IMG/VR virus record: IMGVR_UViG_3300005461_000343
Strand: one strand, 5' to 3'
Origin: an uncultured virus (IMG/VR IMGVR_UViG_3300005461_000343)
Lineage: Duplodnaviria > Heunggongvirae > Uroviricota > Caudoviricetes
Length of the DNA: 64,000 nt
In this document: positions 5,756-64,000 of the stretch, piece by piece
How the letters are laid out: each line of letters begins with the position of its first letter
Numbering within the stretch: position 1 is the first letter of the stretch
Notes under the pieces: generated by a model
What the model saw: the letters and a program-made list of their open reading frames with translations, nothing else
Databases searched by the model: none
What the model was told of the DNA's origin: nothing
Translations under genes and position numbers: made by a program

Positions 5756-5811
5756 CTTTTGAATTATATATGAAAACTATCTCTCCCTCCTGTGAAGGCC
5801 GGAGAGAAAAA

Positions 5812-5885
5812 GGCCCTTTAGCTCAGCGGAACAGAGCGACGGTTTCCTAAACCGCAGGTCCCGGGTTTGAGTCCCGGAAGGGTTA
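5812..5885 (+). tRNA. tRNA-Arg(CCT), somewhat non-canonical
   Basis: Acceptor GGCCCTT/AAGGGTT, D stem GCTC/GAGC, anticodon loop TT-CCT-AA (CCT at 5846-5848), T arm CCGGG-TTTGAGT-CCCGG. It has T56 instead of C, an A-C mismatch at 27-43 and no encoded CCA. Confidence 0.8.
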
Positions 5886-6317: not shown

Positions 6318-6431
6318 CGTTTCATCCCTAGCGGATGCTATTCAATCAATTATTTCACTAAAGTGCAACGCAGGTCTCTGTCCGTGAGGATATGAGGCCT
6401 TTTCACATCAAGAAATTTAAATCAACAACAT

Positions 6432-11640: not shown

Positions 11641-11714
11641 TTCGTGTTTTTCATGGTATTAGATTTGGGTTAGAATGATTATCCCCGCCGTTCGCGAGGA
11701 TATGCGGGGATTTC

Positions 11715-11792
11715 GGGCGGTAAGTATTCCGGGATGAAACGTTACGGAGTGCGCATGACGTAAAGAGGCCGGTTCGATCCCGGCACCGTCCA
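11715..11792 (+). ncRNA. tRNA-like RNA lacking a D stem, with G3:U70
   Basis: Acceptor GGGCGGT/ACCGTCC plus discriminator A, perfect T arm GCCGG-TTCGATC-CCGGC, central stem ACGTTA/TGACGT with an 11-nt loop. Confidence 0.65.
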
Positions 11793-11812
11793 CGAATAAC
11801 AAACATCTAATT

Positions 11813-43951: not shown

Positions 43952-44414
43952 GCTAAAAAGACTGATTCCTTCATTAATAATCGCCTTGACAAGCGTCATA
44001 CTCCAACTCGCAGGTAAACATTTCTATTTCGATACCAATTCCATACCATACGACCATTTCCTTTACACGTTCACCCACGCAAACATCTTTCATTTATCAT
44101 TAAATCTTATCGCCTTATTCCAGTTTAAGCCTCGTGTGAAAACATGCCTGATCGGTTACGTGTCTTGCGTCTTGGCCTCGTTCGTACCACTAGCCTCATT
44201 GTCGGTTCCTACATGCGGCATGTCCGGATTTATCATGGGATGTTACGCCCGCAGATATCACGCCTATAAACTAAGCCTTTGGAGAATAATATTGAGCAAT
44301 ATCGTCATGGCGTTTATCCCCTTATTCAACTGGAGGATACACTTGCTGTCATTCCTAATAGCCTATATCATCTATGGAGTCATACAGAAAATTAGCGTTC
44401 ACGGAAGAGGTTGA
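43941..44414 (+). CDS. Rhomboid-family intramembrane serine protease
   Basis: HANIFHLSLN (HxxxxHxxxN), GMSG (GxSG catalytic Ser), His in the last TM (WRIHLLSF), about six hydrophobic segments. Confidence 0.8.
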   Translation: MEGKLKRLIPSLIIALTSVILQLAGKHFYFDTNSIPYDHFLYTFTHANIFHLSLNLIALFQFKPRVKTCLIGYVSCVLASFVPLASLSVPTCGMSGFIMGCYARRYHAYKLSLWRIILSNIVMAFIPLFNWRIHLLSFLIAYIIYGVIQKISVHGRG

Positions 44415-46488
44415 GTCTATATTGGCCGAGAATAACAAGAGGCTGAAAAATATATTCGGCACGCACGACCAATTCACGGGGCGTGGAATGGAGGGGCATA
44501 GCCATAGGGTTGTCATAGATGATTACCCCATAAGGGTGCAGTGGCTTACCGAGGAGGTTTTCAAGAACGATCTGTATCAAGATGTTCTGAAAGCTGGTTC
44601 CATAAAGGACTACACGATAAGGTTCAACGAGCTGTACCCGGATTCAGATGGGATAAATGAGGAGGACGTGGCCAACATGCTATTTTGGGCCCGTTGCTCG
44701 AGAGACCCGTCCTTCGCCTTTTTCTCGTTATTTAAGATCAAGTCGAAAGAGGCGGGAGAAATGATCCCCTTCGAGCTTAATTACGCCCAACGTTACGTGC
44801 TATCCGTTCTGGAAGAAATGAGGCATAAGGGAGTCCCGATCCGTATAATATTATTGAAAGCCCGGCAATGGGGAGGTTCCACCTTGGTACAGCTCTATAT
44901 GGCGTGGATACAGCTATTCGTCATGGAAGGATGGTATTCCGTAATTATAGCCCAGACGAAAGATACCGCCAAACGTATCAAGGCCATGTATAAAAAGGTT
45001 CTCGATAATATCCCGGGATTTATATATGGTGTTGACAAGTTACAATTCGCCCCTTACGAGCATTCGGCGTCCGACTCCATAATCACCGACCCGTCCGGGA
45101 ACAAGGTACGTGATAACGTGATAACCGTGGCATCTTATGAGAATTTCGAGTCAACACGTGGTATGGACTATGCCATGGCCCACTTCTCGGAGGTAGCCTA
45201 CTGGAAAACAACGGATGGCAAATCGGCGGAGCAGGTTATAACAAACATAGACTCGAATATATTGGAGAGACCGTTGACCATGGAGATCTCCGAGTCTACG
45301 GCTAACGGCATGGCCGGTTATTTCTATGATGAGTACCAAATGGCCAAGGAGGGCACGTCATCCCGTAAGGCGCTATTCATACCGTTCTTCTTTATCGAGA
45401 ACGACATGATAAGATTCAAGGACAAGAAAGAGACCCGGCTTTTCATATTGGATCTATTAGAGGGAAGGGATGTCACGACCTCCCCTAATGACAATAGCGA
45501 ACCGGGACAGTATCTATGGTCTCTATGGGAAAAAGGAGCTACGCTGGAGCACATCAAATGGTATATCAAGAAAAGGGCCTCGTTCCATGATCACGCATCG
45601 ATGGCATCCGAGGCACCATCCGATGATGTCGAGTGTTTCAAGTATTCCGGTAATCTCGTGTTCAATATCTATACGATCGAGGTGATGCGGGAAAGATACG
45701 TATCACCCCCGGAGTTCATTGGCGACATATCCCAATCAGAGAAGACCAAGAGGATAATTCTCTCCAAGAATCCGAACGGCCTGTTGAGAATCTGGAAGAG
45801 GCCCGATGATACAAGGACATCCAACGAGTATCTTGTTATCGTCGATGTCGGTGGACGTAGCAAGAACTCTGACCCGTCATGCATAACGGTTATAAACAGG
45901 TGGAATTTACGATTCAGCGGAGGAAAGCCGGAGGTGGTAGCCAGATGGCACGGTCATATACGATACGATTGGCTCGCCTACAAAGCCGTCAAGATCGCCA
46001 GATACTATAAGAACGCCCTTCTCGCCTTCGAGAGCAATACGTTTGATAAGAAAAAATCAGAGGCGTCAGAGTTCGTGGAGGAAGGCGATCATATTCGTGG
46101 CATACTGAAAAAGATAGAGGATATCTACCCTAATCTTTACATGCGAGCGGCGACGGATCCCGAGGACATAAGGAACGGCATATACAAGAAGATAGGCTTC
46201 CAGACCAACAAGAAGACCAAGCAGGACATGGTGGATAATTTCATAGTGGCGTTCGAGGACGATATGTTTATAGACCCGGATGAGCGTATGTACAAGGAAG
46301 CGTCAAAATACGAGCAACGTCCGGACGGTAGTTACGGTAATATTCCCGGTCGTGGCAATCACGACGATATATTGATGACAGACATGATAGGAGCGCTCAT
46401 ATCAGAGGATATGCCTAAGCCTTCTATAATCAAAGAAGAATCAACGGGATATCTTGATTCATATCCCAAAAATGAGTCGAGTTTATAG
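44374..46488 (+). CDS. Terminase large subunit
   Basis: PFELNYAQ, LKARQWGGST (Walker A), HFSEVAYW, ESTANG, IVDVGG and HDD motifs. Confidence 0.92.
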   Translation: MESYRKLAFTEEVESILAENNKRLKNIFGTHDQFTGRGMEGHSHRVVIDDYPIRVQWLTEEVFKNDLYQDVLKAGSIKDYTIRFNELYPDSDGINEEDVANMLFWARCSRDPSFAFFSLFKIKSKEAGEMIPFELNYAQRYVLSVLEEMRHKGVPIRIILLKARQWGGSTLVQLYMAWIQLFVMEGWYSVIIAQTKDTAKRIKAMYKKVLDNIPGFIYGVDKLQFAPYEHSASDSIITDPSGNKVRDNVITVASYENFESTRGMDYAMAHFSEVAYWKTTDGKSAEQVITNIDSNILERPLTMEISESTANGMAGYFYDEYQMAKEGTSSRKALFIPFFFIENDMIRFKDKKETRLFILDLLEGRDVTTSPNDNSEPGQYLWSLWEKGATLEHIKWYIKKRASFHDHASMASEAPSDDVECFKYSGNLVFNIYTIEVMRERYVSPPEFIGDISQSEKTKRIILSKNPNGLLRIWKRPDDTRTSNEYLVIVDVGGRSKNSDPSCITVINRWNLRFSGGKPEVVARWHGHIRYDWLAYKAVKIARYYKNALLAFESNTFDKKKSEASEFVEEGDHIRGILKKIEDIYPNLYMRAATDPEDIRNGIYKKIGFQTNKKTKQDMVDNFIVAFEDDMFIDPDERMYKEASKYEQRPDGSYGNIPGRGNHDDILMTDMIGALISEDMPKPSIIKEESTGYLDSYPKNESSL

Positions 46489-46573
46489 CGTGCGCATGAA
46501 CGTTTCCCCTGTAAAAATCAATATTAGATAAATAAAATACGACTTATTTTTTACTAATATAAAATAAATAGAG

Positions 46574-47280
46574 TATATTTGCGTAGTCACTGATTAGAAT
46601 ATAAGACGTGACACACATTGTGGCGTTAAAGATATCGTCTCCTATAAAGACCTAAATTCCCCAAATTTATAAACATAACAGGGAGCCGATAGCAACAATA
46701 CGCCCACGTTATTTGTATATATAATCTATATATAAGACGTGGGCCGTTGCTTACTACCTGTTATGTTGGCGTGGGGACGCCGGGTCTTGGTAGTTGCGAC
46801 GGCGCCACGTTTTTTTATGCGTATATGGTATGTTATATATTTATAACCCCTTATGGCTCTCATCCGTGATGGACCGGAGTCATTACTTAAAGATATTACA
46901 CTAGGTTGTATTCATAAAATATTTTATCAATGTCATACCGCTCTTTCGTGAGAACCAGAGGTATATTTATGTCAAGGGGATAGCTTTGGAGGATGGGGGC
47001 ACACTCCCTTCCTTATGGCATAAAATATAGTTTGAATAAATATTTCCCGCTTCCCTTGGGTAGTATTGGGAAGCATTTTAAGACGGATATACCCACCGTT
47101 GCTATTCCGGGAGGATCGGCAATGATGATTAAGTATGTCTTTGTTTAGATATGGATTTAGATATTACAAACGCTCTCGTTCGTGAGGATAGGACCGTTTA
47201 AGGTTGTCTGAAAACCATTCATATAGATTATAGTTAAATAATAAAAACTCCCTTATCCGTGAGGATTTGGGGAGTTTTTT
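46574..47280 (+). ncRNA. Putative long structured non-coding transcript / small-RNA array
   Basis: TATATTTG at 46574-46581, no credible ORF, a long hairpin (46672-46767), a terminator-like hairpin (46769-46816), five GNRA-type hairpins, and a final hairpin with a T tract at 47243-47280. Confidence 0.6.
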
Positions 47281-47389
47281 ATTTTTTACTATTCCTCGGG
47301 ATAAAACTAAAAGTAAAATATGCCGTAAAACATGCCTCCTACGGAATAACGGATGTGAAGATTGGGTAATTTTGCAAAAAACACAAAAC

Positions 47390-48382
47390 ATGTCTATAAA
47401 TACATACTATACTATTCTTGGAATTACTGAATGTGCTACTTTTGAAGAAATACAAAAAGCATACAGGCAAAAGGCATTATTATATCATCCTGATAAAAAC
47501 AAAAGCGACAATGCACATGATATATTTATAAAAATACAAAAGGCATATGAAGTATTATCTGACCCAGAACGAAGATCAAAGTATGATAATGACTTAAATT
47601 CCTATAGGCAAAATATTTTCAATTCAATAAACACAGACAAAACAAATAGAGGTAAGTCTGATATAGAGAATATACAAAAACAAAAAAAGAGTCCAATCAA
47701 TAAACGATCATATAAAAGGGAAAAGACAAGCATTAATTCTAAAAATATATTAATATTTATTTGCATATCAATAATAACTATATATATAGCTTACCATGCT
47801 AATTTATTCAATATTAATAACCATAATACAGACACAATAAATCCTACACAAAAGATTGATGATTATGTTGAAGAGGTTGCGCCTATAGTTGAAGAAGTTG
47901 AAGATTCAAATATATATAAGAATAATCATCTTATGAATGGAGATTCTCCATTTACTGAATACTTTGGAATTAATTCGTATGATGATAGCCAAGATAATTA
48001 TATAACGGTAAATAATGGAAGTGATCAAGACGCTGTTGTTATATTAAAAAATATAACTAGTAAAAAGATAATTAGGAATGTATATATTAACAAACACACA
48101 TCTTATGATATAAGAAATATTCCAGAAGGTATTTATGAGATGAAATGTGTTTATGGTAATGACTGGAATCCTAATTTATTATTCAATGGAATGAAGTTAG
48201 GAATGTTTCAATCAAATGTACATTACTCTTCACAAGCCAACTATAAAGACTATTTTAATATGTTTTCAGAGAGAACAGAAAATGGAATTTCTATTCCATA
48301 CTATGAAGTAACTCTTCATAAAGTGTCTAATGGCAACATGAGAACAAAAAAAATTAACCAATCTGACTTTTTTGAAAAATAA
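47390..48382 (+). CDS. J-domain (DnaJ-like) single-TM protein, AT-rich moron
   Basis: YYTILG...AYRQKALLYHPDKN...F.KIQKAYEVLSDPERRSKYD, TM ILIFICISIITIYIAY, own promoter TAATTTTG at 47367-47374. Start moved to ATG 47390. Confidence 0.85.
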   Translation: MSINTYYTILGITECATFEEIQKAYRQKALLYHPDKNKSDNAHDIFIKIQKAYEVLSDPERRSKYDNDLNSYRQNIFNSINTDKTNRGKSDIENIQKQKKSPINKRSYKREKTSINSKNILIFICISIITIYIAYHANLFNINNHNTDTINPTQKIDDYVEEVAPIVEEVEDSNIYKNNHLMNGDSPFTEYFGINSYDDSQDNYITVNNGSDQDAVVILKNITSKKIIRNVYINKHTSYDIRNIPEGIYEMKCVYGNDWNPNLLFNGMKLGMFQSNVHYSSQANYKDYFNMFSERTENGISIPYYEVTLHKVSNGNMRTKKINQSDFFEK

Positions 48383-48384
48383 AT

Positions 48385-48861
48385 ATGGAAGATTTTTTAA
48401 ACAGCATGACTATCCTTTCATCGGCGATATTAGTCTATATATTCAATCGAGATATTATTTTAAAAAAGATATTATGGAAAGAAAAATTCGAGCCTAGGAA
48501 ACCTAATGGAAAAGGGAAAAACATCTATTTGTATGACGCAAGGATTTTAGGAGTAATTCTTGAAGGGATTAGATTCAGAGAATCAACAACAGCATACGGC
48601 ATATCAGAAGTAAGATACCGTTTTCTAATGTTCCTTGGTATTTTCTTAATTCCTATTGGATGTTATCGTGTTATAGAGAAAAAAACCATAAAAACCGGAT
48701 ATAAAGAATATACGACACAGTTTATGATACTAGGTACAGAATCATGGAATTTACTTGAAATTATATCCATATATATTTTTAGGTTAAGCACTTTGATAAT
48801 ATTCATATTCTCTATTATATCGATAGTAGCATTTATTGGCTTGATCAGTGAATATATTTAA
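48385..48861 (+). CDS. Membrane protein co-transcribed with the J-domain gene
   Basis: Three hydrophobic segments, FLGIFLIPIGCYRV; starts 2 nt after the upstream stop. Confidence 0.7.
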   Translation: MEDFLNSMTILSSAILVYIFNRDIILKKILWKEKFEPRKPNGKGKNIYLYDARILGVILEGIRFRESTTAYGISEVRYRFLMFLGIFLIPIGCYRVIEKKTIKTGYKEYTTQFMILGTESWNLLEIISIYIFRLSTLIIFIFSIISIVAFIGLISEYI

Positions 48862-48907
48862 AATGTAAAAAGATAGCGGGTGACACCAACGCCACCCGCC
48901 ACTTTAC

Positions 48908-51900
48908 CTATTCACCATTAGCTATCTCATTCATCATAGCTTTCAAATCGTATAACTCCATTTCCAATCTTTCATCATCTACCTTCTTCAAATACTCACC
49001 CATTGATTGATACAATTTGTTAAGATTATTAAACTCTACATATCCACGATATTCATCGCTCATCATAAGATCATTCAATTTTTTCTGATACTCTGCTATA
49101 TCAAAACTATCGTTCTGTGGATTAGACAATTCTTTACGATATCCTCTCAATCTTTGTCCGATCTTATCCATTTCTTCCAAATTCTCATAATAAGCGTTAT
49201 CTATGGCTTTCTTTTTCGTCCGCTCATCACCACTTTTTATAAGACGGTTCCCTACAGGGATATTCCTCCAGTCAAAATCACGACTACCCCAAGCGGTTTC
49301 AGCGGATTTGACCATCTGGGAACGCGTAGCCTCAATACCTCCGAAATAGCCGTCCAATATATGTTCTATAATGGCAGGGTTTAGGTTAACGGTACCTGTA
49401 GTGTATTTATCTCCTCCGGTTAGTTCATTGGCATATTTAGTCATTGCCAATATAGCGGGATCCACGCTCTTAAAAGCCTTTGTCCATTCCGGCATACCCT
49501 TGTTGAAGTCGTTATCCTTATATAAAGGCAAACCTGTCCAATCCTTGTTATCTCCGGCCTCAATCAATGGCTTTACCGAGCTTGGGACGAAAGCGGAGAA
49601 TCCTCCACCTCCCTCCATCATGTCCAAAGGAAGAACCTGTGACATTTGCTCCGCTATCTTCATGGCCATCTTTTTATCGGTATACTTCTCCTTTCCGGAA
49701 ACTATTCCAGAAGACATTTCTCCTAGTCCATATATAGCCCTTAACTCTATGGGCATAGGAATTGTAATCCAATTTCCTCCACCGTTACGGAAACAGATAT
49801 TATTACGTCTCACGTATTCCGGAAGATCGTAGTAATCATCATCTTCATCATCCCCAAAAGCGGCAGCGATCATAGGCATGATAGTGCCAAGTAAATAGAA
49901 AGAGGACGCTAACCCCAAGAATTTCTTGGGATTATCCTTGGCCAGCCTTCCGAAATTATACATACCTTGTACACCAGCGTTCCAAAACACATACATGGAT
50001 CTTGACAATCCAGACGTGAAAGCGCTAGCGTTACCTATCTTGGTTTGCCCCTCAGTATTCAATAATTTCGAACCCGCCCCTTTCTTATTGAAGTTTACGG
50101 ATATCTCCTTAGCGTCATAAATGGATTTATCCATGCTTCGCCCCATTTCTCTAGAAGTAAGGAACGCAGCGAACCTAGCGCAATTCTCCACGCTCTTATT
50201 GAACAAGTCCATCCATTCGCCTAGTATTTTCAAAGCCTTTCCTATAGATACCTTTTGCTTGGAGTATTGAAGTTCTTTTTGGATCGCCTTCTTCTTGGCT
50301 TCCACGTCTCTCAAATTGGTGTATCCGGTCTCTCCTCCTCTCATTACAAAATCATGGTATGCCTTATTCAAGGGATCGATCATATCCAACGTACCGTTCT
50401 CATACCCCTTGACCAGACGATACATATTGATCGGGTTTACCTTAGCGAAATTCTTATTGAACTTCCAAGCGTAAACAGGACTTTCCTTGACCCATACGGT
50501 AGTATTCGAATAAAGCGCGTCACGAAGGAAATTACTTACCATGAAATTAGGGTTACGTGTCGTGAAGTTAGCCGCCAAGTTACGGTTCAGCCATCCGGCG
50601 TATCTCTCCACGGTACCGAACCATCCTTTCGTATTATCCGGGTTTGTAAGCCCGTTCAACGCTTGAGCGGCCCTTGGATTTCCGTTTATGGTAAGCACGT
50701 ATTCTTTGCCGGCTCTCTTTACGATCACTTGATGCTCCTTCAAGTCCTTTGGCAATATCTTGTAAGGTATCCCTATAGCATCCCTTGAACGCCTGACATT
50801 AGATCCTTTTTCATTGGATAGCTCCTCCATGCGTTTGTTGAAAGATTCCACGATAGACTCCACCTGTTCCGGATTGGCGTTAGATGGTATATCCGGGAAA
50901 ACGGCAATCCACTCACCGGAAGCCTCGTCAAGACGAACCCACATTTCGCTTACGCTCACGAGATCCGTCTTATGATTTTGTACCATTGTCAAAAACTTTT
51001 GCTTCATCAAGTTCCTATTCCCTTGCATGATTCCACTCTCTGCCATATTAGCGATCGTCGCTATAGGATCGTCAGCCTTGCTCTTTCGCCCAACGACAGT
51101 CTTTATAGGGGCGTTGAACGTCTGGCTTTCGGATGTAAGATAAGCGTAAACCTCATCTGCCGTAGTTTCCTCCCATCCACGCAAAGGCACATAGAACTGA
51201 TACATATCGCTGATCGACTCAAACGTATTTTGGCTCATAAGCCCGCTATCCCGTTGCTTTGCCAATATAGCGTCAGTGGCTCTTTTGACAGAGGCCGATA
51301 ATTCCGATGTATCATATCTTGACTCGTAATCCAATACGTATCTCCTTGCGGAATCCAGATCATACCCCGTGTTATTCTCGTTAGGATACATGGACGTGAA
51401 TCCGCTGAAATCATCAGAAAGATTAGCTCCGTATTCCTCGGCAAGCCTATCCATTTCTGATTGCTGCTCTTCCCAAGACCTACCGTTCTCACGTATCTCA
51501 TTCCTTCTCCCGATATACTCGTCAAGCAGGGATTTATATGTTTCCGAGTTTTGTGACAACGCTCGTTTAACGGCCATTTCCCTGTTACGCTCAATACCAT
51601 GCTTGGTTATAAGGTAATCCCTTATCTCATCAATGGTGGATCCCATCTTTTCCAATCGTGACATCGCTTTTAAGATAGGCTCGAAAGCCGCTTTTCTATA
51701 AGCGTTGAACTCCGCTTCATTAACAGAGGAAAGGGCATTCTCGGCCATATAAGCGTTCTCATAATCCAATAGACGACTCCTCGTTGCCTTTGCCACGGCA
51801 TCCTGCAATGTTTTAAGCCCTAGCATAGAATCCTGAAACGCCTCCTGAAATTGATAGGACGATGTAGATAGGGTACGCTCATATTGATCTTTGGCGGAAC

Positions 51901-54900
51901 CTACCTGTTTCTCTACTACTTGGATATCATTATCAGCGAACAATACCGACTCATTCCGCGCGTTCTCCCTAAAACGGATTGTTTTCTCTGCGAAAGCGAA
52001 ATCATCCGTCTTTTCCCTTACGCTTTCTCCAACGCCTCTACCCTTGTTTTCAGATTCTGCACGTCCGATGACAGTCCGATCACCGCCGATTCCATCCCGG
52101 ACACTTCCGCTCCTATCGCCTGTATCTCCTCCGTCAAGTTGGTCTCCATCGTTGTCAACTTTTCCATCAATCTCCCTTCCATTTCGGTCAATTGCGTTTT
52201 CAGTTCCGTCAATAGCGTTTTCAACTCCCCTTGGTTTGTCGATATGGTCTCGTTCACTTTCGTTTCCGTTCTCATCAACGCCATCGATTGTCTCGAGTTC
52301 CCTTCCAGTACCTTTTGTTTCAGAAGGTTGTTTTCCTTTTTCAGGTTCAATATCTCTTGCGATTGATCCATTTTCGTTCAAATTTATATTGTTAAGACTT
52401 AATCTATTTCTCATCACGATATCCTCGGCTACATCCATCAAGTTTCCTTGCTCCAAGTTCTTATAGCTTCTCCAGAGAATATAACGGAGGTCATTATCCG
52501 ATAACTTGAAATCAAGACTAATACCTGCCTTTCTCAACATATCAAGAAAAGCGTCCTTGATCTTTTCCCATAACGAACGCTCGGCCTTGTTATCGAAACC
52601 ACGTTCCGCTAATTCAGCGAGGTATTCCTCTGTAGCCTCACGCAAGTTAAGAGGATTGCCTTTAGTCCGGTCAATGATATTTTTCCGGATATCCTCGTTG
52701 GCGTTCCGATACACGTTATCAAGGAAAGTATCGAAATCGTCCCCGAATAGCTCACGTAACCCGTGATGCCCTACCACCTCATGAAGGAAAGTCCTTTGAG
52801 CGTCACCTACGGACGTGGAATTAGGTGATACTATGACTATCTCCCCGGTAGAAGTATCATACCAGCCTTTGGAATCTCTCTTACGGGCCAACATATTCTC
52901 ATCCGTATCGGTTATATCGTCCACGTCATGGATTACCCTGACAGGGATATTAAACTTGTTTGACCAATCGTTGATTGAGGATTCAATAGAACTTACATTA
53001 TCCTGATTATTAGTTGTATCTACTCCCATGAATCGAAATCGAGTCTCTCCTTCCTCTTTTACCAACGTACCATCAACGTCAAGAGTTGATTCTAACTGAA
53101 TATCCTCAGCTTTAGCTTTTTCAACTAATTGTCTCTGCAGATCATTAACCTCTGCCTGAGCCGCATTAAGTTCATCCTCTTTTCCCCACGGTTTCTTAAC
53201 GGCTTCCTCTAATCCCGCTATCTTGTTTTCCTCTGCCTTTATTTTAGTGGCTATATCTGAGACGGATTTAGCGGGAATCCCCAACTGCCTGTCAATGCTA
53301 GCCATCAAACCCCTGCCGCCGCTAAAATCACGATTCTCAACCAGTTTTTCCTTTCCTAAATATAAACTATAGACCATCATTCCTTCATTGAAATGCACGA
53401 TTGCCTCGCCTTTTCCTCCATTGAGACTGATTTTCAGAGGAGGGGTGTTTCTGTCAAGCGTATATCTATCATAGTAATCATCAATAATGGGCGTAAGCTC
53501 ATTCGATATACCATCGCTGAAAGTATTGCCTTTAACAGTCACGGACTCAACCCCATCAGGGAAGTTCTCTTTTACGATATTGGCGTTCCTTTCCATGATA
53601 TCCTTCCGGCTGTTGTATTCTTGTATCCTAAGTTTGGAGTTAGATATAGAGCCACGCATGGAAGACTTACTGTTAAGATCGCTCCTCTTGGAGTTTTGCA
53701 ATTTCTTTAACTTGTTCTGTGCCACAAACAGCAGTTGGGCGGTCTTATCTCCTGATAACGTCGCCGCCATCTCACTAAATGTCATTCCAGACGGATCACT
53801 ATCGTCTTGCTCCTCCATTACACGAGACGATATATCGCCTTTCATCATTTGGTTGATGAAGTTTTGTTTTATACGAAGCCTGTCATAGGCGGTAGCGTCA
53901 AGGGTACCTTTAACGCCATATGTGACGATGTTCACCGGTTTATCCCATGTGGCGTATAAGTTTCCTTGTCGTAAGATACGACCGTTGCGTTGCTCAAAAT
54001 CCATAGGCCTGATTGGAGCGTCAATATGATGCAGGGCGAATAGACGATCTTGCACGTTGACACCCACTCCCATTTTCTCCGTGCTTCCAATAAGAATGCG
54101 CACATCCCCATTACGGACCTTATCGAACAAGGCGTTTCTCCTTTCTCCCTCATAATTGCCAACGATAGCTATCTGATTAGATGGAATACCTCCCTTGATA
54201 AGCTTTTCCTTTATATCATTGTACAAATTAAACTGAGGAACAGATAAATCGACATCGAATAAATCCATTTTTGGAGTCTCAGAAGGGGATTGATAACTAT
54301 CGCAGAATATAAGTTGCGTGCCCTTGTCCTTATCGCTCTCCTTATATAATCTCAACACGTTATCGACCACCTTGTTTGTCTTGCTATCAGGATTGTCGGG
54401 AAATGTAGGATTAAGCAAGCGAAGGTCAATCGCAGCCTGTTTAGCCTTGCTGAACACGACCAAGGGTAGTGCGCTCTTATCCTTCTTCTCTTTTCCTGTC
54501 AATTTGTTATAATCCTCTAATTCCTTGATAAGGGTTTGCATGATATCCTCCAAGTCCTCGTTCTTCTCGACAACGACATTGGTCATCTTATTGTCTTTCA
54601 ACTTAGGGATATTCTTGTCTTCCTTGAACTCCTTGACATCCTCAGTCAAGACAACGTCCGTATGGCTCCTGAACGCCTTTATAAGCTCCGGGACATTCGT
54701 ATAGCTCTTGAACCTCTCGGCTATCTTAAAGTTACCGGTAGCGGTAAACTCCAATGACGGCTCAACCGTTCCAAAAGTGGTAGCGAACTCGTCAAAGCTA
54801 TTGATATTATATGCGTCTAGGATATCGGGTGCCACGAAATTCATCATAGTCCAGACCTCTGCCATTGTATTAGTGATAGGGGTACCGGTTGCCAGAACCA

Positions 54901-57900
54901 CGTTTCGACCACCATTATTCTCAGATATCCATTGGGCTTTTAGCAACATACTATTAGCTCTTTGTGACGCGCTCGTATCGATACCTTTAACGTTCGACAT
55001 CTTGCTTGGAAACCCGATCTTCTTATAATTATGCGCCTCGTCAATAAACAAAGCGTCAACACCCATTTGCTCAAACGTCATGACATTATCAGTCCGCCTG
55101 TCAAGAATACGCTCCGTCTTGGCCGTGATAGTCTCCGCAGTCTTTGCCTTGCCCTTTACGTTTTTCCCTTTCTTTATACCTTCCAGAGAATCACGCATAC
55201 TTTTGGCCTCCCTTTTCAATCTCTCCTGTAAAGCCTTGTCTTCTATGCGATCGATAGCTTCCTCAAAATCATCTATACGCTTTTGGATATATGCCTTTTT
55301 CCTTTCCTCGCTATCCGGGATAAATGCCATAAATGACTGTGGGACAACGATAGCGTCAAAATCTCCGGTAGCTATAAGATTGAACAGCCTTGTCCTATTA
55401 TCGGCATTACGCTCCTCCTTTGTCGGAGATAGAATCTTAGCGGAAGGATACAGTTTATAAAAGTCACGGACGAAATCCTCTAGGGTAGCGTTTTGGACAA
55501 CGATCATGGGTTTCTTCGCTATACCTAGCCGTCTCATTTCCATAGCGGACGTAATCATGGTAAAGGTCTTTCCCGTACCGACTTGGTGAGCGAGTAACGT
55601 GCTCTCGGATAGACAACGTTGCACCGCCTTGCTCTGGTGATCCCTAAGCGTTATATTCTTATTAGCGTTAGGATAATGCTCAAAAACCGGTTTGTCATAC
55701 TTTTTTAGTACATAGTTGTTGTATTTATCATTATACACGTCCTCAATACGACCATGGAACATCGTTTTAGAATCAATATACTCCACGAACTTATCGGACA
55801 TGTCGGATATTTTCTCGGCAACGGCCTGTGTCTCCTGCTCGTTTACGACCCTTCTCGTTTTCTGCTTACCGTCCTCATAATATTTAATCTCGTCATAAAC
55901 CTTGGGTTTACGTTGGTTAAGAGCGGCCTTGAACACGTCTATAGCGTCCATTCTCTCAGTCTTGAATTGACCGGCTTTAGCGTAATCGGTTATGAACGCC
56001 CTCTTATCAAGAATATACTCACCGATCTCTGGGATAAAATTAGCGTTAGCGTAAGATATACCCAGTACATTATCAGCGAAATTATTTATAAACTCAGACG
56101 GGATCCATGTAGTCCCCAGTCGATAACTTATCTCACCATAGGGTATACGTTCTGGCTGTACGGCTTCCAAGTCATCCACGTTTTTTTGAAACTCCGGATG
56201 ATCTTCCAAGGCCGCCTTAGCCTCTACCAACTTATCTTTTACGTTTCCAGAGAGATATTCGCTCTTATCTATTATATTGCCGGTAACAGGATCCCTATAA
56301 GCAATTCCCTTCTCTAGTATCTCGTTTGTCACGTTCACCTCATCCATACCCGTTATCTCCGAGATATAAGGTATATCAATATTACCTTTATATGACTTGC
56401 TTATATTGACGGCATCCAAGACATTATCCGCTTTTGTCGGTAGCTCGAATGGATAACTTACACGCTTATTCAAGATACCATCCGCTTTCGAGACTTCCCA
56501 TACCATAGATTTTCCGGTCGTGGAAGGTACCCTTCTAACGGTTTCCAAAGAGAAGGGTAATCCATGCTCAACATCCTCGGCGAAAATATCGTCCAAAGCC
56601 TTGTTCCTGTTAAGTGTCCCATATTTGGACACGAAAGCATCATATACTTTGTTTAGCCTTTTCCTCGCGGGCTCGGGGTCCACACCCTTTGTTTGCTCAT
56701 CATGGATAAGATCGTATAGATTTTTCTTTATATCATTGTAATCATTTACCGCATCCGCTATTTTCCGGGTCTTACCATTATGAACGAACGTAGGATTTGC
56801 CTTAATCGGTTTTAACGACTCTCCATCTAAAACAAAGACATTGCCATTCTGGACGGTAATAGTACCATCTTTCAAAGTGGAGTCACCCACAACCTCCGGC
56901 CCTTTAGTCTCTACAACACCTGATAGGATATTCTTTGGTAAGTTATCAATAGCGTTAAATAGCTCCTTGCTTAAATCGGCCCCGGGTTTGGCTTTCAATG
57001 TCTGGGACGCTCCACTATATAGACCTCCGCTACCAGCGTCATAAGCAGTCATCATATCACCTAACATCATATCGGGATGATTGGAGAAATACTCGTTAAC
57101 CATGATAGGCTTGCTCCTTTTATCCCCGTCCTCCATATAAGTTCCTTCACCTATTTGCGTTGTAGTAGCGAACCCTATCCCATTCGAAGGTTCCCCATAC
57201 TTTCTTTTACGGAATATAACGATGTCGGCCGTGACACTCGTGCCGGCCCCTTTCTGGAAAGCGTCATTAGGCAATCGAATAGCTCCGACCAGATCATAAC
57301 CGTTTCCACTCACGTACTCACGGAACTTACTATCGGCCCCATCCATCGTAGCCGAGGACGTGACGAATACGCCGAGACCACCTTCTTTCAATTCCAGAAG
57401 CCCCTTTAGGATAAAATAATTATGGAGATTATAAGAGGAACCAAGTTTCTTCCTGAATTGCTTATCTAAAACCTTATCATATGGAGCGTTTTTCCCGAAT
57501 GGGACGTTGGTGATAACTAAGTCTTTCGAGTTTGGAGAAAACGCTTTCTCATATCCCTGCACCTTTATATTAGCGTCAGGATATAAGGCCTTTGCCATAC
57601 GACCGGACAAACTATCTATCTCGAACCCACTTATACTTGAGTTTTCAGATATAGACCTAGGCATCATACCGATTATGTTACCTATACCCATGGCGGGTTC
57701 ACTGATATTGCCGCCCTTGAATCCAAGTTTCTCCGTTATTCCCCATAAGCTTTCCACGACCTCGGACGGGGTATAATGAGAGGTTGTCGTGGAACGGACG
57801 GCACTGTCGAACTCTTCTTTACTTAATAAGGATTTTAGTTTCTCGTAATAACGTAGATACTTATCATTCCAATTTCGATCCTTAGTCCAATTGTTGTCAC

Positions 57901-60900
57901 GTGCGTTGTATTTGCCTTCGTTCAAGGCTTCGGCTAAACCTCCCCATCCAACGTACCTTGACATCTTGGCTTGTTGTTCCGGGGTAGGTTTTCCTTGGCC
58001 GTCCTCTACGTCTTTCAGCGTTTCTATCGCCTCAATATTGGCTTTTAACTTGGATATATCACCGGAAGGAAGCTCAATCCCTTTCTCCGGGAAGCTGAAA
58101 TTGTTTTGATTTCTTACAACAGGCCGCTTGTCGCTGTCGCTGATAGGTATTCCTCGGCCTCGCTCCGTGTCAAGCACATCACTTCCATGCACGCCTCCAC
58201 GGTCTCCTCCGCGTTCAGATCCTCGATCCTCTTCCCGTGCTTTTCTTCCCACGCCTTGATCCGCTCTTGAATTTCCTTGCTCATTGTCTTTAATATTATT
58301 AGGAGTGAATAAATCGTTACCATACAAAGGTAATGGTTTGTCCTTGTTGTCCGTTCGCTTTTTCCGGCTATTTTTTATTTTTTTCTCCGCGGCACTCGCT
58401 TGTCTGGCAATCTCAGTCTCTTTAACCACGGTCTCAGCGGAATCCATTATATCCGGGACAGGCTTGTCAAAATTAGCTACATCAAACGAACGGACATCCT
58501 CATAAGTGGTCATATCCTTATCCCATCCGTTATCTCCTACTTCCGGCAAATCCCTCGCTCCATTGTAGAATGCTTTAAGATACGGTCGTATAGCGTCACC
58601 TAGATCATCGATCATAGCCTTTGAGTAATCTGAGAACTTACGCAATCCTTTCTCTATATGATAAACCGCCATTTCAGTACCTATCGCCAGTATCTCAGGA
58701 TCAATACCCATATTCATTTGACCGCCTAGTTTCTTGCGCATGCGCTCACGGAGTTCCGCATACCGTTCATCGGTAACAAGGCGGTTACCGCTAGGGGTAA
58801 CGGTACGATCGCTCAATTTGGCTTTGCCCTTATCGTTGATATCACCAATAAGGTTTTCTACATTTACCTTTTGAGGCTCTACGACCCTGCGTGTGTCTTC
58901 AAGAGAAATAGGTTGCGCATCGCTTACGGCATCGGTATCGCCAAGAATGGTATCGGCCAACCGCCTTGCGCTTTCATCGCTACGCATCATGAAACCTCGC
59001 TGTTCCCTGTCATACCAACCCTTTTCAGCCTTGGCTAGCTCTTTGGCGGCACGTTGCTGTTCCTTCGATAATTCATTACCGAACTTCAATAGCCACATAT
59101 CAAGAACTTTTCCTTTCTTGGTAGTATATTGGGAGGAAACAATGCTATAATTATCAGAATCATTATTTTTAGAAATATCGCTTTCCTCCTGTTTAATTCC
59201 CTTATACTCATAGAAGGGCTTTGTTTTGCGAGTCGAGGAATCAATCCATTTCTTGAACCCATCCAACGTGACCCCGGTAATGTTGCCTAACCCTTGCCAA
59301 CCCTCCTCATAGTTTGACAAGTAAGCGGACCTAGCGTCTTCTAAGGAAGGGAATCCCATCATAACCTTATGCTCATCGAATGAGCCATCAGTATTCACCT
59401 GATCCACGACATACACCATGTCACTATTCATATCCGGGCCTAGGAATACGTCTATATGATCACCATCCACACTTTCAGTACCTCGAATGTAACCGTAAGT
59501 GTTGTTCATGGTAACAGACCACTCTTTTCCATTAGCGTCCTTACCGGAACGGACGGAACCGGCGGGCTGCTCTATGGTGACATCGAAACCGTTTATCTTT
59601 ATATGGCCTTTCTTGTAATTGCCGGCCTCTTTTTGCGCCTCTGTTGGATTGGTATCAACCTTTAGCTCCTCTTCGTGCAATCTCTTAGCCTCAACTATGC
59701 GCTCGGCATAGTCCAATGGGGTCTCATTCTCCTTTGGAGAAGGAGCGACAAATGGAACTAGTCCCCTTGATGAGCCTTCTTGTGTAGCTCCATCCGTGCG
59801 ATCAATGTCGGGGCCAGCCGATTCTCTTCCCTCAACCTCTCCAGTTCCCCCGGTCTGATCAAGTTGTTCTCTTGGCAGTACCTCGCCGCCTCCCTTGCGT
59901 AAGCCATCGCCTCCGCTTTCGTCATTTCCTTCAATGTTTTCATTTTCTATCGGTTTATTTTGCGCTAAGATAGCGTCTATTTCATTTTGTTCGTCAATTA
60001 TGGCCTGTATTTCATCCGCAATTTGCGAATCAAGCTCGCCTCGCTCCTCATCAGTCAATTGTTTCTCCGAGAAATCACGTACCATGCTTTCCTCATACGC
60101 CTCGTATTCTTCCGGGGACATATGATAATTCTCCTCGCACCACTCAGCGTAAGCGTTGTACTCGGCCTGTCTCTCACGCTCAGCGATCGCCTCACGATTC
60201 CTCTTGACATAATCGATCAAGTCTCCACGTGTACGAGCGGAAGACAAGACCTCTATGATCGCGTCCCTTCCAGCGTTCGTATCGTTCTCATCGAAGAAGT
60301 TCGTACCATTCTCCTTATCGGCAAGCTCCAATATCTCACCCGCCCTCTCTATATTAACACCGCCTTTCTCCGGAGAGGCGAACAAGCCGAACATCCTCGC
60401 TGTCTCATTATTCCCGGCACCCGTCTCTTTCTTGTATGTGTCACGTGTCAATTTGATCGCCCCATTAGCCAGCATCATGGCCGCAAGCTCCTCTCCGCTC
60501 ATAGGATCACCCATCACGGAGATCTCCTTCGCTATGACATCACCCGGCTTCTTGCTGGCCTCCTTGATATCATCATCAAGATTAGCCCAGAAATCAGCCT
60601 CGACCTTGATCGCCTCATATTCTTGTCGGGCTTTTATCAATGCGGCCTCGGCCTTATCCTCTTTTCCGATAGGGGCGTCATCGTATACCTCTTGCGCCTT
60701 TTCCAAGGCATCGGACGCTTTTTTAAGGCTTTCATCGAAAGATTTTCTCGTCACCTCGATCTTCCTTGGCATCTTATCGCCATATTTATCATAAAGGAAA
60801 TCCAAGGTCATATCCGTACCTGACGATACGAAATCAGGCGTACCATCTTCTCGCATGACCATGGAAGGATTCTCTACATTGCTAGGTTGTGCTATCTGAT

Positions 60901-63127: not shown

Positions 63128-64000
63128 GAATCCAACTGTATTTTTCGTTTGTATTTTCTGTTCCTCCTTCATCGTTTAAAGGGATATGCCTGCCCTTACT
63201 AGAAGAACCTCCCGATCCGATCACCCTATCAAACTCATCGTATAATTCCGGGAAATTCTGAATATTACTCATGACAATAGCGGCTTGTTTGGTCTTTTGG
63301 TCTCCACCTTCACCAAGCTGCCACGTTACATCCGATACGCTCTTGTTTTTATCTTTATTTTCCTCCGCATACTCCAACATCCTCTTATACATATAAGCGA
63401 TAACCCCATCTTTATCCTTACCGGACAAAGTGAAACGTTTACCGTTTCTGCCGATGATGTCAATAGACTTATCCGCCCCAGATCCATTAGCTTTAGCGGT
63501 ACGATATTGCTCAAGACTACGGAGATTGGATTGCCTTATACCCAACTCTCTCTCTTTATATGCGGCATCCTGTTTCATCTTCCGCTCCTCCCTGTCATTC
63601 TTTATTGCGAATTGAGCGGCACTTTGCGCTATCTTGGCTTTTGCCAAATCATTCTGGGCTTTTCTAGCTTGATCCTGTCTATACAGAGATAACGCCCTTT
63701 GATAATTATTCATATCGTTTTGCCTTGCGGCCAGATATCCGGCCCCATATCTTTGCCTGATAGCCTCCAACCTGTCAGAATAAGATTGTAGTTTAGGATC
63801 AGCTACGGTAGGTAGTTTCTGCGAAGGTGCCTCTCCCGCAAATGCCAAATTGGAGAAGGAAGACAACACATTGCCTAGATGCCCGATTCCAGTAGCTACG
63901 GAAGCGGCCCTTTTTCTCCTCTCCTCCTCCTCTTGGCTTATCGGCTTTTGAAAAAGCGTCTCATATAACCTTTGGTTCCATTGGTAATCGTTCATTTGAG
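63117..64000 (-). CDS. Putative DNA ejection/internal virion protein (5' end probably outside the window)
   Basis: A/G-rich amphipathic segment followed by a Q/R/A-rich coiled coil; frame open to the window edge; overlaps the start of the giant gene. Confidence 0.55.
   Translation of the reverse strand, partial: QMNDYQWNQRLYETLFQKPISQEEEERRKRAASVATGIGHLGNVLSSFSNLAFAGEAPSQKLPTVADPKLQSYSDRLEAIRQRYGAGYLAARQNDMNNYQRALSLYRQDQARKAQNDLAKAKIAQSAAQFAIKNDREERKMKQDAAYKERELGIRQSNLRSLEQYRTAKANGSGADKSIDIIGRNGKRFTLSGKDKDGVIAYMYKRMLEYAEENKDKNKSVSDVTWQLGEGGDQKTKQAAIVMSNIQNFPELYDEFDRVIGSGGSSSKGRHIPLNDEGGTENTNEKYSWIHGF

What the first reader, a model, noticed from the sequence alone, without database searches (positions are those of the whole stretch)
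46817..47280. Array of GNRA hairpins separated by segments antisense to translation-start-like sequences (candidate guide/sRNA array)
Seen: related hairpins at 46853-46883 (TCC-GTGAT-GGA), 46935-46964 (TTC-GTGA-GAA), 47094-47127 (TCC-GGGA-GGA), 47168-47199 (GTTC-GTGA-GGAT) and 47243-47280 (ATCC-GTGA-GGAT plus T tract). Two other hairpins are present, and unique AT-rich spacers separate them all. In three spacers a CAT lies 20-28 nt before a hairpin (46913, 47019, 47220). Their reverse complements read like Bacteroidetes start regions (GATAAAATATTTT-ATG-AATACA, CAAACTATATTTT-ATG-CCA, AACTATAATCTAT-ATG-AATGGT) but open only 2-21 codon ORFs. The same layout occurs at 11652. Inference: a polycistronic array of modular antisense RNAs (variable seed plus conserved handle) that silence host or rival-element mRNAs. 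It is not CRISPR, since structure rather than sequence is repeated. Caveat: CAT in AT-rich DNA can occur by chance, and not all spacers have it.
Basis: partly seen in the sequence, partly recalled or inferred. Interest (0 to 1): 0.8.

Follow-up and report, generated by a model that had tools for sequence, protein, structure and literature searches.

The report
Abundant multi-hairpin noncoding RNA of Bacteroides phage
The flagged hairpins are real and belong to a conserved, highly transcribed noncoding RNA gene of about 0.7 kb carried by a group of Bacteroides phages, but the idea that it is an array of exchangeable antisense guides is not borne out.

Summary
The hairpins exist as described. 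They form the 3' two-thirds of a discrete noncoding module (46574-47285, + strand) in the gap between the phage terminase gene and a DnaJ-domain gene. The module has a promoter-like box, a 190-nt extended hairpin, seven further hairpins and a strong terminator. It is 84-100% identical in Bacteroides phage BF1-TP2 and over 60 IMG/VR contigs, with different flanks. RNA-library contigs from four studies cover 46598-47278, leave the terminase gene uncovered and lie deeper than on DnaJ.

Five hairpins share a cap (pyrimidine-rich arm, GUYC-GNGA-GRAU, purine-rich arm). That cap also ends a FopS-like sRNA unit at 11644, flanks the phage tRNAs and forms similar arrays in other gut-phage contigs.

The guide-array reading fails its own tests:
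- CAT is at chance level (8 seen, 7.3 expected).
- Spacers vary less than hairpins (9/212 against 18/174 columns).
- Some "seeds" are paired in cis.
- No excess complementarity to the phage's own start regions; host targets could not be tested.

Rfam has no family for it; BTnc231, GibS and BTnc049 match only weakly.

Best reading: a phage-borne regulatory RNA, or sRNA precursor, of the Bacteroides seed-plus-hairpin kind. Mechanism and targets are inferred.

The parts
46574..46581 (+). Promoter-like -7 box. It reads TATATTTG in the window (Bacteroides TAnnTTTG type) and TATATTCG in the relatives. It marks the left edge of the conserved module.
   Evidence: Motif scan. Conservation starts here while upstream flanks differ. 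RNA contigs start 17-32 nt downstream. The consensus motif is named in the legend of PMC11697453; its letters are from my own knowledge.
46588..47285 (+). Inferred transcript of about 0.69 kb. Its ends are inferred from the promoter box and terminator, not mapped.
   Evidence: RNA-library contigs span 46602-47238 (X1), 46602-47247 (X10), 46613-47278 (X8), and 46598-46803 plus 46857-47147 (X11). Depth is zero over 45000-46473 in all four runs.
46621..46817 (+). Extended imperfect hairpin of about 190 nt (72 pairs, 8 of them G.U), followed by T7. It could be an internal terminator or a separate 5' domain.
   Evidence: Fold and pair ladder (-81.4 kcal/mol on +, -74.9 on -). 10 of 190 columns vary. 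Contigs of 3 of the 4 runs laid read through it.
46853..46883 (+). H1: 8-bp stem, 2x2 internal loop, UCC/GGA, pentaloop GUGAU.
   Evidence: model R1 15.1 bits, E = 0.014.
46936..46963 (+). H2: CUCU / UUC-GUGA-GAA / CC bulge / AGAG.
   Evidence: R1 24.2 bits. 0 of 20 columns of its core (46941-46960) vary.
46965..47025 (+). Stem 46965-46973 with 47017-47025, carrying an optional 41-nt insert hairpin (46976-47016). The insert is absent in 4 of 12 aligned variants. The CAT at 47019 lies in this stem.
   Evidence: Indel. Pairs at columns 398-406/448-456, with U.G to C-G in the 4 deletion variants.
47050..47075 (+). Hairpin with a 7-bp stem and a 12-nt loop. The loop (UGGGUA) could pair with UACCCA at 47091-47096. 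This pairing is untested.
   Evidence: the loop complementarity is read.
47097..47124 (+). H3: 7-bp stem, 2x2 internal loop, UCC-GGGA-GGA.
   Evidence: R1 25.2 bits. 0 of 28 columns vary among the 12 variants.
47152..47219 (+). Long irregular hairpin tipped by H4 (47168-47199, GUUC-GUGA-GGAU). Its 3' half (47195-47218) is the only piece kept in relatives that lack the module.
   Evidence: 47157-47211 U-A to C-G in 2 of 45 variants; R1 31.8 bits.
47243..47285 (+). H7: terminator hairpin (AUCC-GUGA-GGAU cap) followed by T6-A-T6. This is the right edge of the module.
   Evidence: Downstream flanks diverge right after it.
11644..11714 (+). Related unit elsewhere in the window: a FopS-like sRNA (23-nt R1-type seed plus a hairpin with the same cap, GCGA loop).
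   Evidence: RF04319, 33 bits against a gathering score of 56, E = 0.0026; R1 24.1 bits.

Best explanation
What it is: a self-contained noncoding RNA gene, a 'moron', of a group of Bacteroides fragilis phages. It lies on the + strand, from a promoter-like box at 46574 to an intrinsic terminator at 47243-47285. It gives an abundant RNA of about 0.69 kb.

Anatomy: a 190-nt extended hairpin comes first. A row of seven hairpins separated by AU-rich linkers follows. Five of the seven carry one cap type: a pyrimidine-rich 5' arm, a small mismatch, GUYC-GNGA-GRAU, and a purine-rich 3' arm.

Where else the cap occurs: in this and other gut phages the same cap closes sRNA-like units, including FopS-like ones. 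It also sits beside tRNAs and ends some genes.

Most likely mechanism: a trans-acting regulatory RNA of the Bacteroides seed-plus-hairpin kind (GibS, FopS, BTnc231). It could act whole, or after cleavage in the AU-rich linkers into pieces whose 3' ends the capped hairpins protect. The strongly conserved linkers would pair with fixed host transcripts.

Shown: the locus, its boundaries of conservation, cover by RNA-library contigs, the hairpin motif and its wider distribution.

Inferred: promoter use, exact ends, processing, base-pairing function and targets.
For: 1. Noncoding.
- The longest + strand ORF (51 aa, 46993-47148) loses its start in 4 of 12 variants through the 41-nt indel.
- A 40-aa ORF is hit by a 5-nt indel.

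2. Discrete, mobile module.
- It is 95.9% identical in phage BF1-TP2, where nothing is annotated under it. There it follows Rha/Ant/gp66 rather than the terminase gene.
- It is present in 13 of 15 IMG/VR loci found through the DnaJ gene. Four of these have a 1.8-kb antirepressor/HTH insert right after the terminator.
- It is present whole in 61 of 63 contigs found with a 22-mer; the other two are cut by contig ends.

3. Transcribed and abundant.
- Contigs of 4 RNA libraries from 4 studies cover 46598-47278 at depth 10-20 in three runs and 3.4-11.3 in the fourth.
- Depth is 0 over the upstream terminase gene. It is about 3 on DnaJ and the ORF after it in 2 of the 4 runs, and nothing there in the other 2.

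4. Strand.
- GNRA loops, G.U pairs and the better fold are on the + strand.
- 20 variable predicted pairs keep pairing, nearly all through a G-C/G-U/A-U change on one side. Such changes would be mismatches on the other strand.

5. Kinship of design with host sRNAs.
- 47138-47278 aligns end to end with Rfam BTnc231. That sRNA has a 5' seed and two C-GUGA-G hairpins, the second a terminator. The score is 21.4 bits, E = 0.016-0.08.
- The same phage carries a FopS-like unit with the same cap.
- Another phage contig (L209) has a unit that opens with the first 13 letters of that seed and ends in the cap.

6. Linkers under stronger constraint than stems: 9/212 against 18/174 variable columns, as expected for sequence-specific pairing regions.

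7. From the literature: GibS and FopS pair through long unstructured 5' regions at start codons, and a FopS sequence has been seen in a phage (PMC7366714 and PMC11697453, passages read).
Against: - Similarity to BTnc231, GibS, BTnc049 and FopS is far below the gathering scores. It rests largely on the hairpins.
- The linkers are not significantly like the FopS-type seed of this phage: 33 of 500 shuffles score as well.
- CAT is at chance level.
- Several linkers are predicted to pair in cis, with some support from variation. They may therefore not be free seeds.
- No target was found among 63 phage start regions or among neighbouring regulator genes.
- All but the window's version carry TATATTCG instead of the consensus -7 box.
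- Contigs cannot show ends, strand or processing.
- Covariation is nearly absent because all copies are at least 94% alike. There were 0 double changes on 12 sequences and 1 clear double change on 45.
Confidence: 0.45

Rival explanations
1. A large structured RNA that works as a scaffold or decoy rather than by antisense pairing. The repeated capped hairpins would be multiple binding sites for one host or phage RNA-binding factor, for example an RRM protein such as RbpB, or a nuclease. The model is CsrB-type sponges. Alternatively, the GNRA loops make tertiary contacts in a compact fold.
For: - Five near-identical caps on variable stems within 430 nt, and the same cap conserved across unrelated phage contigs.
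- Strong fold z-score.
- Linkers partly paired in cis, with one compensatory pair and one structure-preserving indel.
- High abundance.
- RbpB binds BTnc231, BTnc049, GibS and FopS in B. thetaiotaomicron (bioRxiv 10.1101/2023.12.22.572801, passages read).
Against: - No protein partner is identified.
- The cap also occurs singly after genes and next to tRNAs, where it looks like an ordinary terminator or 3' stabiliser.
- There is no Rfam large-RNA match.
- Covariation is too sparse to establish a global fold.
Confidence: 0.25
2. A stack of intrinsic-terminator or 3'-stabiliser hairpins with no function of its own as an RNA. It would act as a transcriptional insulator between gene modules, and the RNA seen would be a stable by-product.
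For: - The cap type ends genes and units in other phages, often followed by short U runs.
- H7 and the 5' long hairpin have real U tracts.
- The locus sits between modules whose neighbours change.
Against: - The module brings its own upstream boundary with a promoter-like box.
- It is far deeper in RNA contigs than the upstream gene: 10-20 against 0. It is therefore not read-through.
- AU-rich linkers are more conserved than stems, which an insulator does not need.
- H1-H4 lack U tracts.
Confidence: 0.12
3. One reading: a guide array with exchangeable seeds on a constant handle, diversifying against host or rival-element mRNAs.
For: - Across unrelated phage contigs the cap is conserved while the sequences between caps differ completely.
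- Units can be gained or lost: a 41-nt hairpin indel, and a remnant of the module in L010/L011.
Against: - Within the family the spacers do not turn over. 61 full-length copies are at least 94% alike, and spacers are the most conserved part.
- CAT is at chance.
- No complementarity signal was found.
- There is no acquisition machinery or repeated unit.
Confidence: 0.08
4. A DNA-level element, such as a packaging site, replication origin or recombination hotspot, whose hairpins matter as DNA.
For: - It lies directly after the terminase gene in the window.
- It is AT-rich with many inverted repeats.
- Module borders coincide with mosaic junctions.
Against: - In BF1-TP2 it is not next to the terminase gene.
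- The loops are GNRA on one strand only, and G.U pairs favour the + strand RNA.
- RNA contigs are strong and sharply bounded.
- The replication initiator gene lies 33 kb away.
Confidence: 0.05

Closest known systems
Bacteroides sRNA BTnc231 (Rfam RF04180), with BTnc049 and GibS (RF04179, RF04182)
   Same: An AU/U-rich 5' segment is followed by an internal hairpin and a terminator hairpin, both capped C-GUGA-G. 47138-47278 aligns over the whole 154-position BTnc231 model. These are Bacteroides intergenic sRNAs with their own promoter and terminator (PMC7366714, passages read).
   Different: - Scores are 21.4, 19.8 and 19.3 bits against gathering scores of 80.4, 81.9 and 115.
- Only the last 150 nt of a roughly 690-nt RNA align.
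- This RNA is phage-borne.
- It has five capped hairpins plus a 190-nt 5' hairpin.
FopS family of paralogous sRNAs (Rfam RF04319)
   Same: The same phage has a FopS-like unit at 11644-11714 whose hairpin carries the same cap. FopS act at start codons of susC-like mRNAs, and a FopS sequence was noted in one phage (PMC11697453, passages read).
   Different: - The flagged locus gives no FopS match at E <= 10.
- Its linkers are not significantly like the R1-type seed.
- FopS are single units of about 70 nt, not a 0.7-kb composite.
Prophage-encoded regulatory and sponge RNAs of enterobacteria (DicF, AgvB/AsxR type; named from my own knowledge)
   Same: A noncoding 'moron' with its own promoter and terminator, carried by a phage and expressed far above neighbouring phage genes.
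   Different: The host phylum is different, there is no sequence relation, the RNA is much longer and multi-hairpin, and no target is known.
Large ornate phage-associated RNAs (GOLLD, ROOL; Rfam)
   Same: A phage-borne, tRNA-associated, highly structured RNA of several hundred nucleotides with many GNRA loops.
   Different: There is no match to any Rfam model at gathering score or at E <= 10. No covariation-supported global fold exists, and the host range is narrow.

Membership tests
FopS (RF04319) | Match to the covariance model at or above the gathering score of 56 bits, including the R1 seed at the 5' end | tested here: not met
   No FopS match in 46400-47450, 46815-47135 or 47100-47300 at E <= 10. 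The unit at 11644 reaches 33 bits with a perfect 23-nt seed but is outside the flagged locus.
FopS (RF04319) | Linker sequence similar to the R1-type seed | tested here: not met
   The best local alignment to the window's own FopS-like seed scores 26 against 19.8 +/- 3.1 in shuffles; 33 of 500 shuffles score as high.
BTnc231 (RF04180) | Gathering score of 80.4 bits | tested here: not met
   21.4 bits, E = 0.081 (1-kb search) and 0.016 (200-nt search). The alignment is full length but rests mainly on the two C-GUGA-G hairpins.
GibS (RF04182) | Gathering score of 115 bits | tested here: not met
   19.3 bits, E = 1.1.
CRISPR array | Near-identical direct repeats at regular spacing with unrelated spacers | tested here: not met
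   Only 12-14-nt partial repeats at 75-86% identity and irregular spacing. No tandem array in the hairpin region; the only repeat found is a 12-nt doublet at 47313-47336.
Base-pairing antisense sRNA acting at start codons | Excess complementarity of single-stranded segments to translation start regions | tested here: inconclusive
   No excess against 63 start regions of the phage itself: the best energies are matched by 4-15 of 30 shuffled linkers. None against Ant, Rha, HTH, gp66 or DnaJ starts of relatives.
Intrinsic terminator | GC-rich hairpin directly followed by a U tract | tested here: met
   Met for H7 (47243-47279 plus T6-A-T6) and for the 5' long hairpin (T7 at 46811-46817). Not met for H1, H2, H3 and H4, which are followed by at most 3 T.
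Large Rfam ncRNAs (GOLLD, ROOL, OLE, HEARO, 6S and others) | Match to any of 4227 Rfam models | tested here: not met
   At gathering score there are only two tRNAs in the window. At E <= 10 there is nothing but weak sRNA or terminator-like hits.

The most novel reading that the evidence does not exclude
Gut Bacteroides phages carry 'sRNA operons'. These would be single abundant transcripts that string several regulatory RNA modules together. Each module is closed by one shared hairpin cap (pyrimidine arm, GUYC-GNGA-GRAU, purine arm). The cap would serve as a common handle for a host or phage factor and as the 3' end of the pieces released by processing. In tRNA-linked units, the nuclease that trims tRNA 5' ends would do the cutting. 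The flagged locus would be the largest such operon. The cap would define a new, widespread class of phage ncRNA islands that retune host translation during infection.
Probability: 0.2. Interest if true: 0.8.

Novelty: new variant of a known kind. Interest (0 to 1): 0.58.

Why it matters
Regulatory RNAs of Bacteroides are only beginning to be charted. Those of their phages are essentially uncharted: my searches found one remark that a FopS sequence occurs in a phage and nothing on this locus or on phage BF1-TP2.

This is a conserved phage RNA of about 0.7 kb. In RNA libraries from four studies it lies far deeper than the phage genes beside it, and it belongs to a cultivated phage-host pair. That makes it directly testable.

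If it retunes host translation or soaks up a host RNA-binding protein, it would be a new way for gut phages to manipulate a dominant commensal. The shared hairpin cap would be a practical search key for more such RNAs.

Tried and rejected
1. Coding reading. Small ORFs in the gap are broken by indels in relatives. Alternative genetic codes were considered but not run, because all large genes, including a 4754-aa ORF, are open under table 11.

2. Homology searches.
- Rfam at gathering score and at permissive thresholds gave no family.
- The INPHARED phage collection gave only BF1-TP2.
- Genome contigs searched with the DnaJ protein gave only unrelated J-domain hits.

3. Host genome access. The window's own assembly is not held, and relatives cannot be drawn for a virus record. 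The start-codon complementarity test against the host was therefore not run.

4. Complementarity tests against the phage's own 63 start regions and against neighbours' start regions: no signal. One search timed out and was rerun with fewer shuffles.

5. FopS-seed similarity of the linkers: not significant.

6. Loose two-cap pattern scan of IMG/VR.
Most of the 86 matches printed from the 80 loci fetched lie in protein-coding sequence and look like chance; one is a true CRISPR array (L087/L088).
- Only L041, L062/L071, L101, L089 and this family were informative.

7. Hammerhead-like letters seen by eye in L208 and L210 got no Rfam match at E <= 0.05. This idea was dropped.

8. RNA anti-CRISPR mimicry was rejected because the hairpin stems differ from one another.

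9. Contig breaks.
- The X11 contigs break at 46803/46857 and at 47147.
- The first gap spans the polymorphic 46804-46829 stretch, and X11 is a wastewater sample. The break at 47147 lies in a conserved stretch, about 26 nt before the polymorphic H4 stem.
- Contigs cannot show RNA ends, so I do not read these breaks as RNA ends.

10. Resemblances recalled from memory (ribosomal and signal-recognition-particle RNA hairpins, phage nut sites, packaging RNA) were not tested and are not claimed.

11. Earlier findings of this scan: three look-ups, nothing held.
Full report
**Setting**

The window is a Bacteroides phage genome, or most of one. It encodes:
- topoisomerase II, a ClpB-type ATPase, SbcC-like and recombination proteins, and a replication initiator;
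- a P22-type portal and a terminase large subunit (44374-46488);
- a DnaJ-domain protein (47390-48382);
- a 4754-aa polyvalent protein on the minus strand.

The finding lies in the 900-nt gap between the terminase and DnaJ genes. The window's own assembly is not held. The nearest held record is an IMG/VR virus contig.

**Observation**

- The + strand of 46560-47300 folds at -229.8 kcal/mol, z = -7.5, with 0 of 20 shuffles as good. The - strand gives -198.3.
- The three CATs are at the stated positions, but CAT is not enriched. There are 8 in 464 nt against 7.26 +/- 2.5 in shuffles, P = 0.44. ATG occurs 13 times on the same strand.
- Two 'unique' spacers are in fact 79% alike (family D6).

**The real unit is larger than the finding**

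Alignment with relatives shows a sharply bounded conserved module from about 46570 to 47285.
- Bacteroides phage BF1-TP2 (PQ571263) has it at 95.9% identity, with nothing annotated under it. There it follows Rha-like, Ant and a hypothetical gene instead of the terminase gene.
- 13 of 15 IMG/VR loci fetched through the DnaJ protein have it.
- In 4 of those, a 1.8-kb block follows directly after the terminator. It encodes an AntA/KilAC antirepressor and an HTH_3 protein.
- Two more distant loci (DnaJ 77% and 69% identical) lack it and keep only 24 nt, 47195-47218.
- A 22-mer from the 5' part finds 63 IMG/VR contigs. All 61 that are not cut by a contig end carry the whole module at 94% identity or more.
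- So the 5' hairpin and the hairpin row travel together.

**Boundaries of the module**

The left edge carries a promoter-like box at 46574-46581. It reads TATATTTG in the window, which is the Bacteroides -7 type. In every relative inspected it reads TATATTCG, a caveat for the promoter call. The right edge is a hairpin followed by T6-A-T6.

**Transcription**

RNA-library contigs from four runs of four studies were laid on 45000-49000.

| Run | Contig span | Depth |
|---|---|---|
| X1 | 46602-47238 | 19.8 |
| X10 | 46602-47247 | 15.8 |
| X8 | 46613-47278 | 10.2 |
| X11 | 46598-46803 and 46857-47147 | 3.4 and 11.3 |

- No run has any cover of 45000-46473, the terminase gene.
- Two of the four runs (X1, X8) have short contigs at depth about 3 on DnaJ and the ORF after it; the other two have none.
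- Contigs cannot give ends, strand or processing. Still, four studies that stop within about 15 nt of each other on the left, just downstream of the promoter-like box, argue for a discrete abundant RNA of roughly 0.69 kb. The silent upstream gene argues the same way.
- The right ends reach 47238-47278, just before the terminator tract.
- The first X11 gap spans a polymorphic stretch and the second break lies about 26 nt before another. I do not read them as RNA ends.
- The strand is inferred from the GNRA loops, the G.U pairs and the better fold.

**It is not coding**

The 51-aa ORF loses its start in 4 of 12 variants, and a 40-aa ORF is hit by a 5-nt indel.

**Anatomy**

1. 46621-46810: an extended imperfect hairpin of 72 pairs, 8 of them G.U, followed by T7.
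2. H1, H2, H3, H4 and the terminator H7. All share one cap: a pyrimidine-rich 5' arm, a 0-3-nt mismatch or loop, a 3-4-bp GUYC/GRAU helix, a GNGA loop (GUGAU in H1), and a purine-rich 3' arm.
3. A stem, 46965-46973 with 47017-47025, encloses an optional 41-nt hairpin. In the four variants without the insert, one U.G pair becomes C-G. The CAT at 47019 is part of this stem.
4. H4 tips a longer irregular hairpin, 47152-47219. One of its pairs (47157-47211) changes from U-A to C-G in 2 of 45 distinct variants.

Otherwise covariation is almost absent, because the copies are so alike.
- There were 0 double changes in 210 predicted pairs on 12 sequences.
- On 45 sequences, 39 predicted pairs vary. 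Of these, 20 keep pairing, nearly all through a change on one side only, and 19 are broken or gapped in 1-2 sequences each.

**The cap is a wider motif**

A covariance model (R1) was built from 18 instances.
- It finds 8 sites at E < 0.02 in the window, all on the + strand.
- Five are in this locus.
- One ends 4 nt before tRNA-Arg (5780-5807). This is the only hit that was not in the training set.
- One lies after tRNA-Met (6372-6399).
- One closes the FopS-like unit (11682-11709), 3 nt before a tRNA-like element.
- None follows any of the 60-odd protein genes.

The same cap occurs elsewhere, often with identical letters on wholly different stems.
- It forms same-strand arrays in other IMG/VR contigs: 6-7 sites within 1.3 kb in L041/L204, 4 in L209, 3 each in L210 and L208, and 2 each in L206 and L207. 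It also occurs in L062, L101 and L089.
- These regions hold tRNAs, one of them with a 95-nt insert.
- L209 holds a unit that opens with the first 13 letters of the FopS-type seed and ends in the cap plus a U run.
- In L210 the cap with a U run follows a gene. So the cap also serves as an ordinary terminator or 3' stabiliser.

The pair counts on the 18 instances look strong: 86.7% of cells paired, 10 of 14 pairs with double changes, and 0 of 500 shuffles as high. However, the instances were picked by a hairpin-finding script, so the pairing itself is partly by construction. What was not imposed is the conserved identity of the cap.

**Relation to known RNAs**

- Rfam has no family for the locus.
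- The last 150 nt align over the full BTnc231 model. BTnc231 is a validated B. thetaiotaomicron sRNA with a U-rich 5' segment and two C-GUGA-G hairpins. The score is only 21.4 bits against a gathering score of 80.4.
- BTnc049 and GibS are weaker still.
It scores 33 bits against 56, and its 23-nt seed matches the family consensus exactly.
- FopS and GibS pair with start-codon regions through long unstructured 5' segments. FopS are bound by RbpB, and a FopS sequence was noted in one phage (passages of PMC11697453, PMC7366714 and bioRxiv 10.1101/2023.12.22.572801).
- The linkers of the flagged locus are not significantly similar to that seed: 33 of 500 shuffles score as well.

**Tests of the guide-array idea**

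- Among 12 variants, with the 41-nt indel excluded, 18 of 174 hairpin columns vary against 9 of 212 spacer columns (Fisher p = 0.026). Spacers are the more conserved part.
- Duplex energies of the six linkers against 63 start regions of the phage's own genes are no better than for shuffled linkers: 4-15 of 30 shuffles are as good.
- There is no signal against the start regions of Ant, Rha, HTH, gp66 or DnaJ in relatives.
- The decisive test against host start regions could not be run.

**Conclusion**

The locus is a genuine, conserved, highly expressed phage noncoding RNA gene with a composite multi-hairpin build. It shares design features and a hairpin cap with Bacteroides sRNAs and with FopS-like units of phages.

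- I favour a trans-acting regulatory RNA or sRNA precursor (0.45).
- Next comes a protein-binding or scaffold RNA (0.25).
- Then a terminator stack (0.12), the exchangeable-guide array (0.08) and a DNA-level element (0.05).

That it is a transcribed noncoding RNA gene I hold at about 0.85.

**Literature**

Searches found no description of this RNA or of phage BF1-TP2. I saw only listings and the quoted passages. Supplementary figures of the RbpB papers, which show the phage FopS hit, were not seen.

Noticed in passing
window 11644-11797: A FopS-like sRNA unit (RF04319, 33 bits; the seed matches the consensus over 23 nt) lacks a U tract. It is followed after 3 nt by a tRNA-like element at 11715-11797: a 7-bp acceptor stem, a T arm with a TTCGATC loop, and an over-long middle part. 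Neither ARAGORN nor the Rfam tRNA model calls it. The 3' end of the sRNA may be made by tRNA 5' processing. L062 carries a near-identical T-arm/acceptor 3' half.
   Followed up: partly
window 5780-5812 and L206 1113-1222: A capped hairpin ends 4 nt (window) or 8 nt (L206) before the 5' end of a tRNA-Arg(CCT) gene in two different phage contigs. This is a conserved hairpin-tRNA arrangement.
   Followed up: partly
L041/L204 (IMG/VR contig, tRNA at L204 1789-1943, minus strand): A tRNA gene with a 95-nt insert in the anticodon region sits inside a 1.3-kb noncoding island with six to seven capped hairpins and a second tRNA-like element.
   Followed up: no
L008 1590-2840 (also L007, L014, L015): A 1.8-kb block with an AntA/KilAC antirepressor gene (minus strand) and an HTH_3 regulator is inserted exactly between the RNA terminator and the DnaJ promoter. 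L010 and L011, which lack the RNA, have a Bro-N/KilAC gene there. The RNA module therefore borders a regulatory switch region in relatives, but not in the window.
   Followed up: partly
window 48908-63172 (minus strand): A 4754-aa polyvalent protein with InPase, Eco57I-type methylase, SNF2/helicase and LPD38 domains lies next to the DnaJ-domain gene.
   Followed up: no
L087/L088 (IMG/VR contig 3300029204_000120): A true CRISPR array on a 92.8-kb viral contig. It has at least 12 repeats at a period of about 68 nt and was picked up by chance because the repeat holds a CGTGAG hairpin.
   Followed up: no
window 47313-47336: A 12-nt tandem doublet (GTAAAACATGCC, 2 copies) lies between the RNA terminator and the DnaJ promoter box at 47367.
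   Followed up: no
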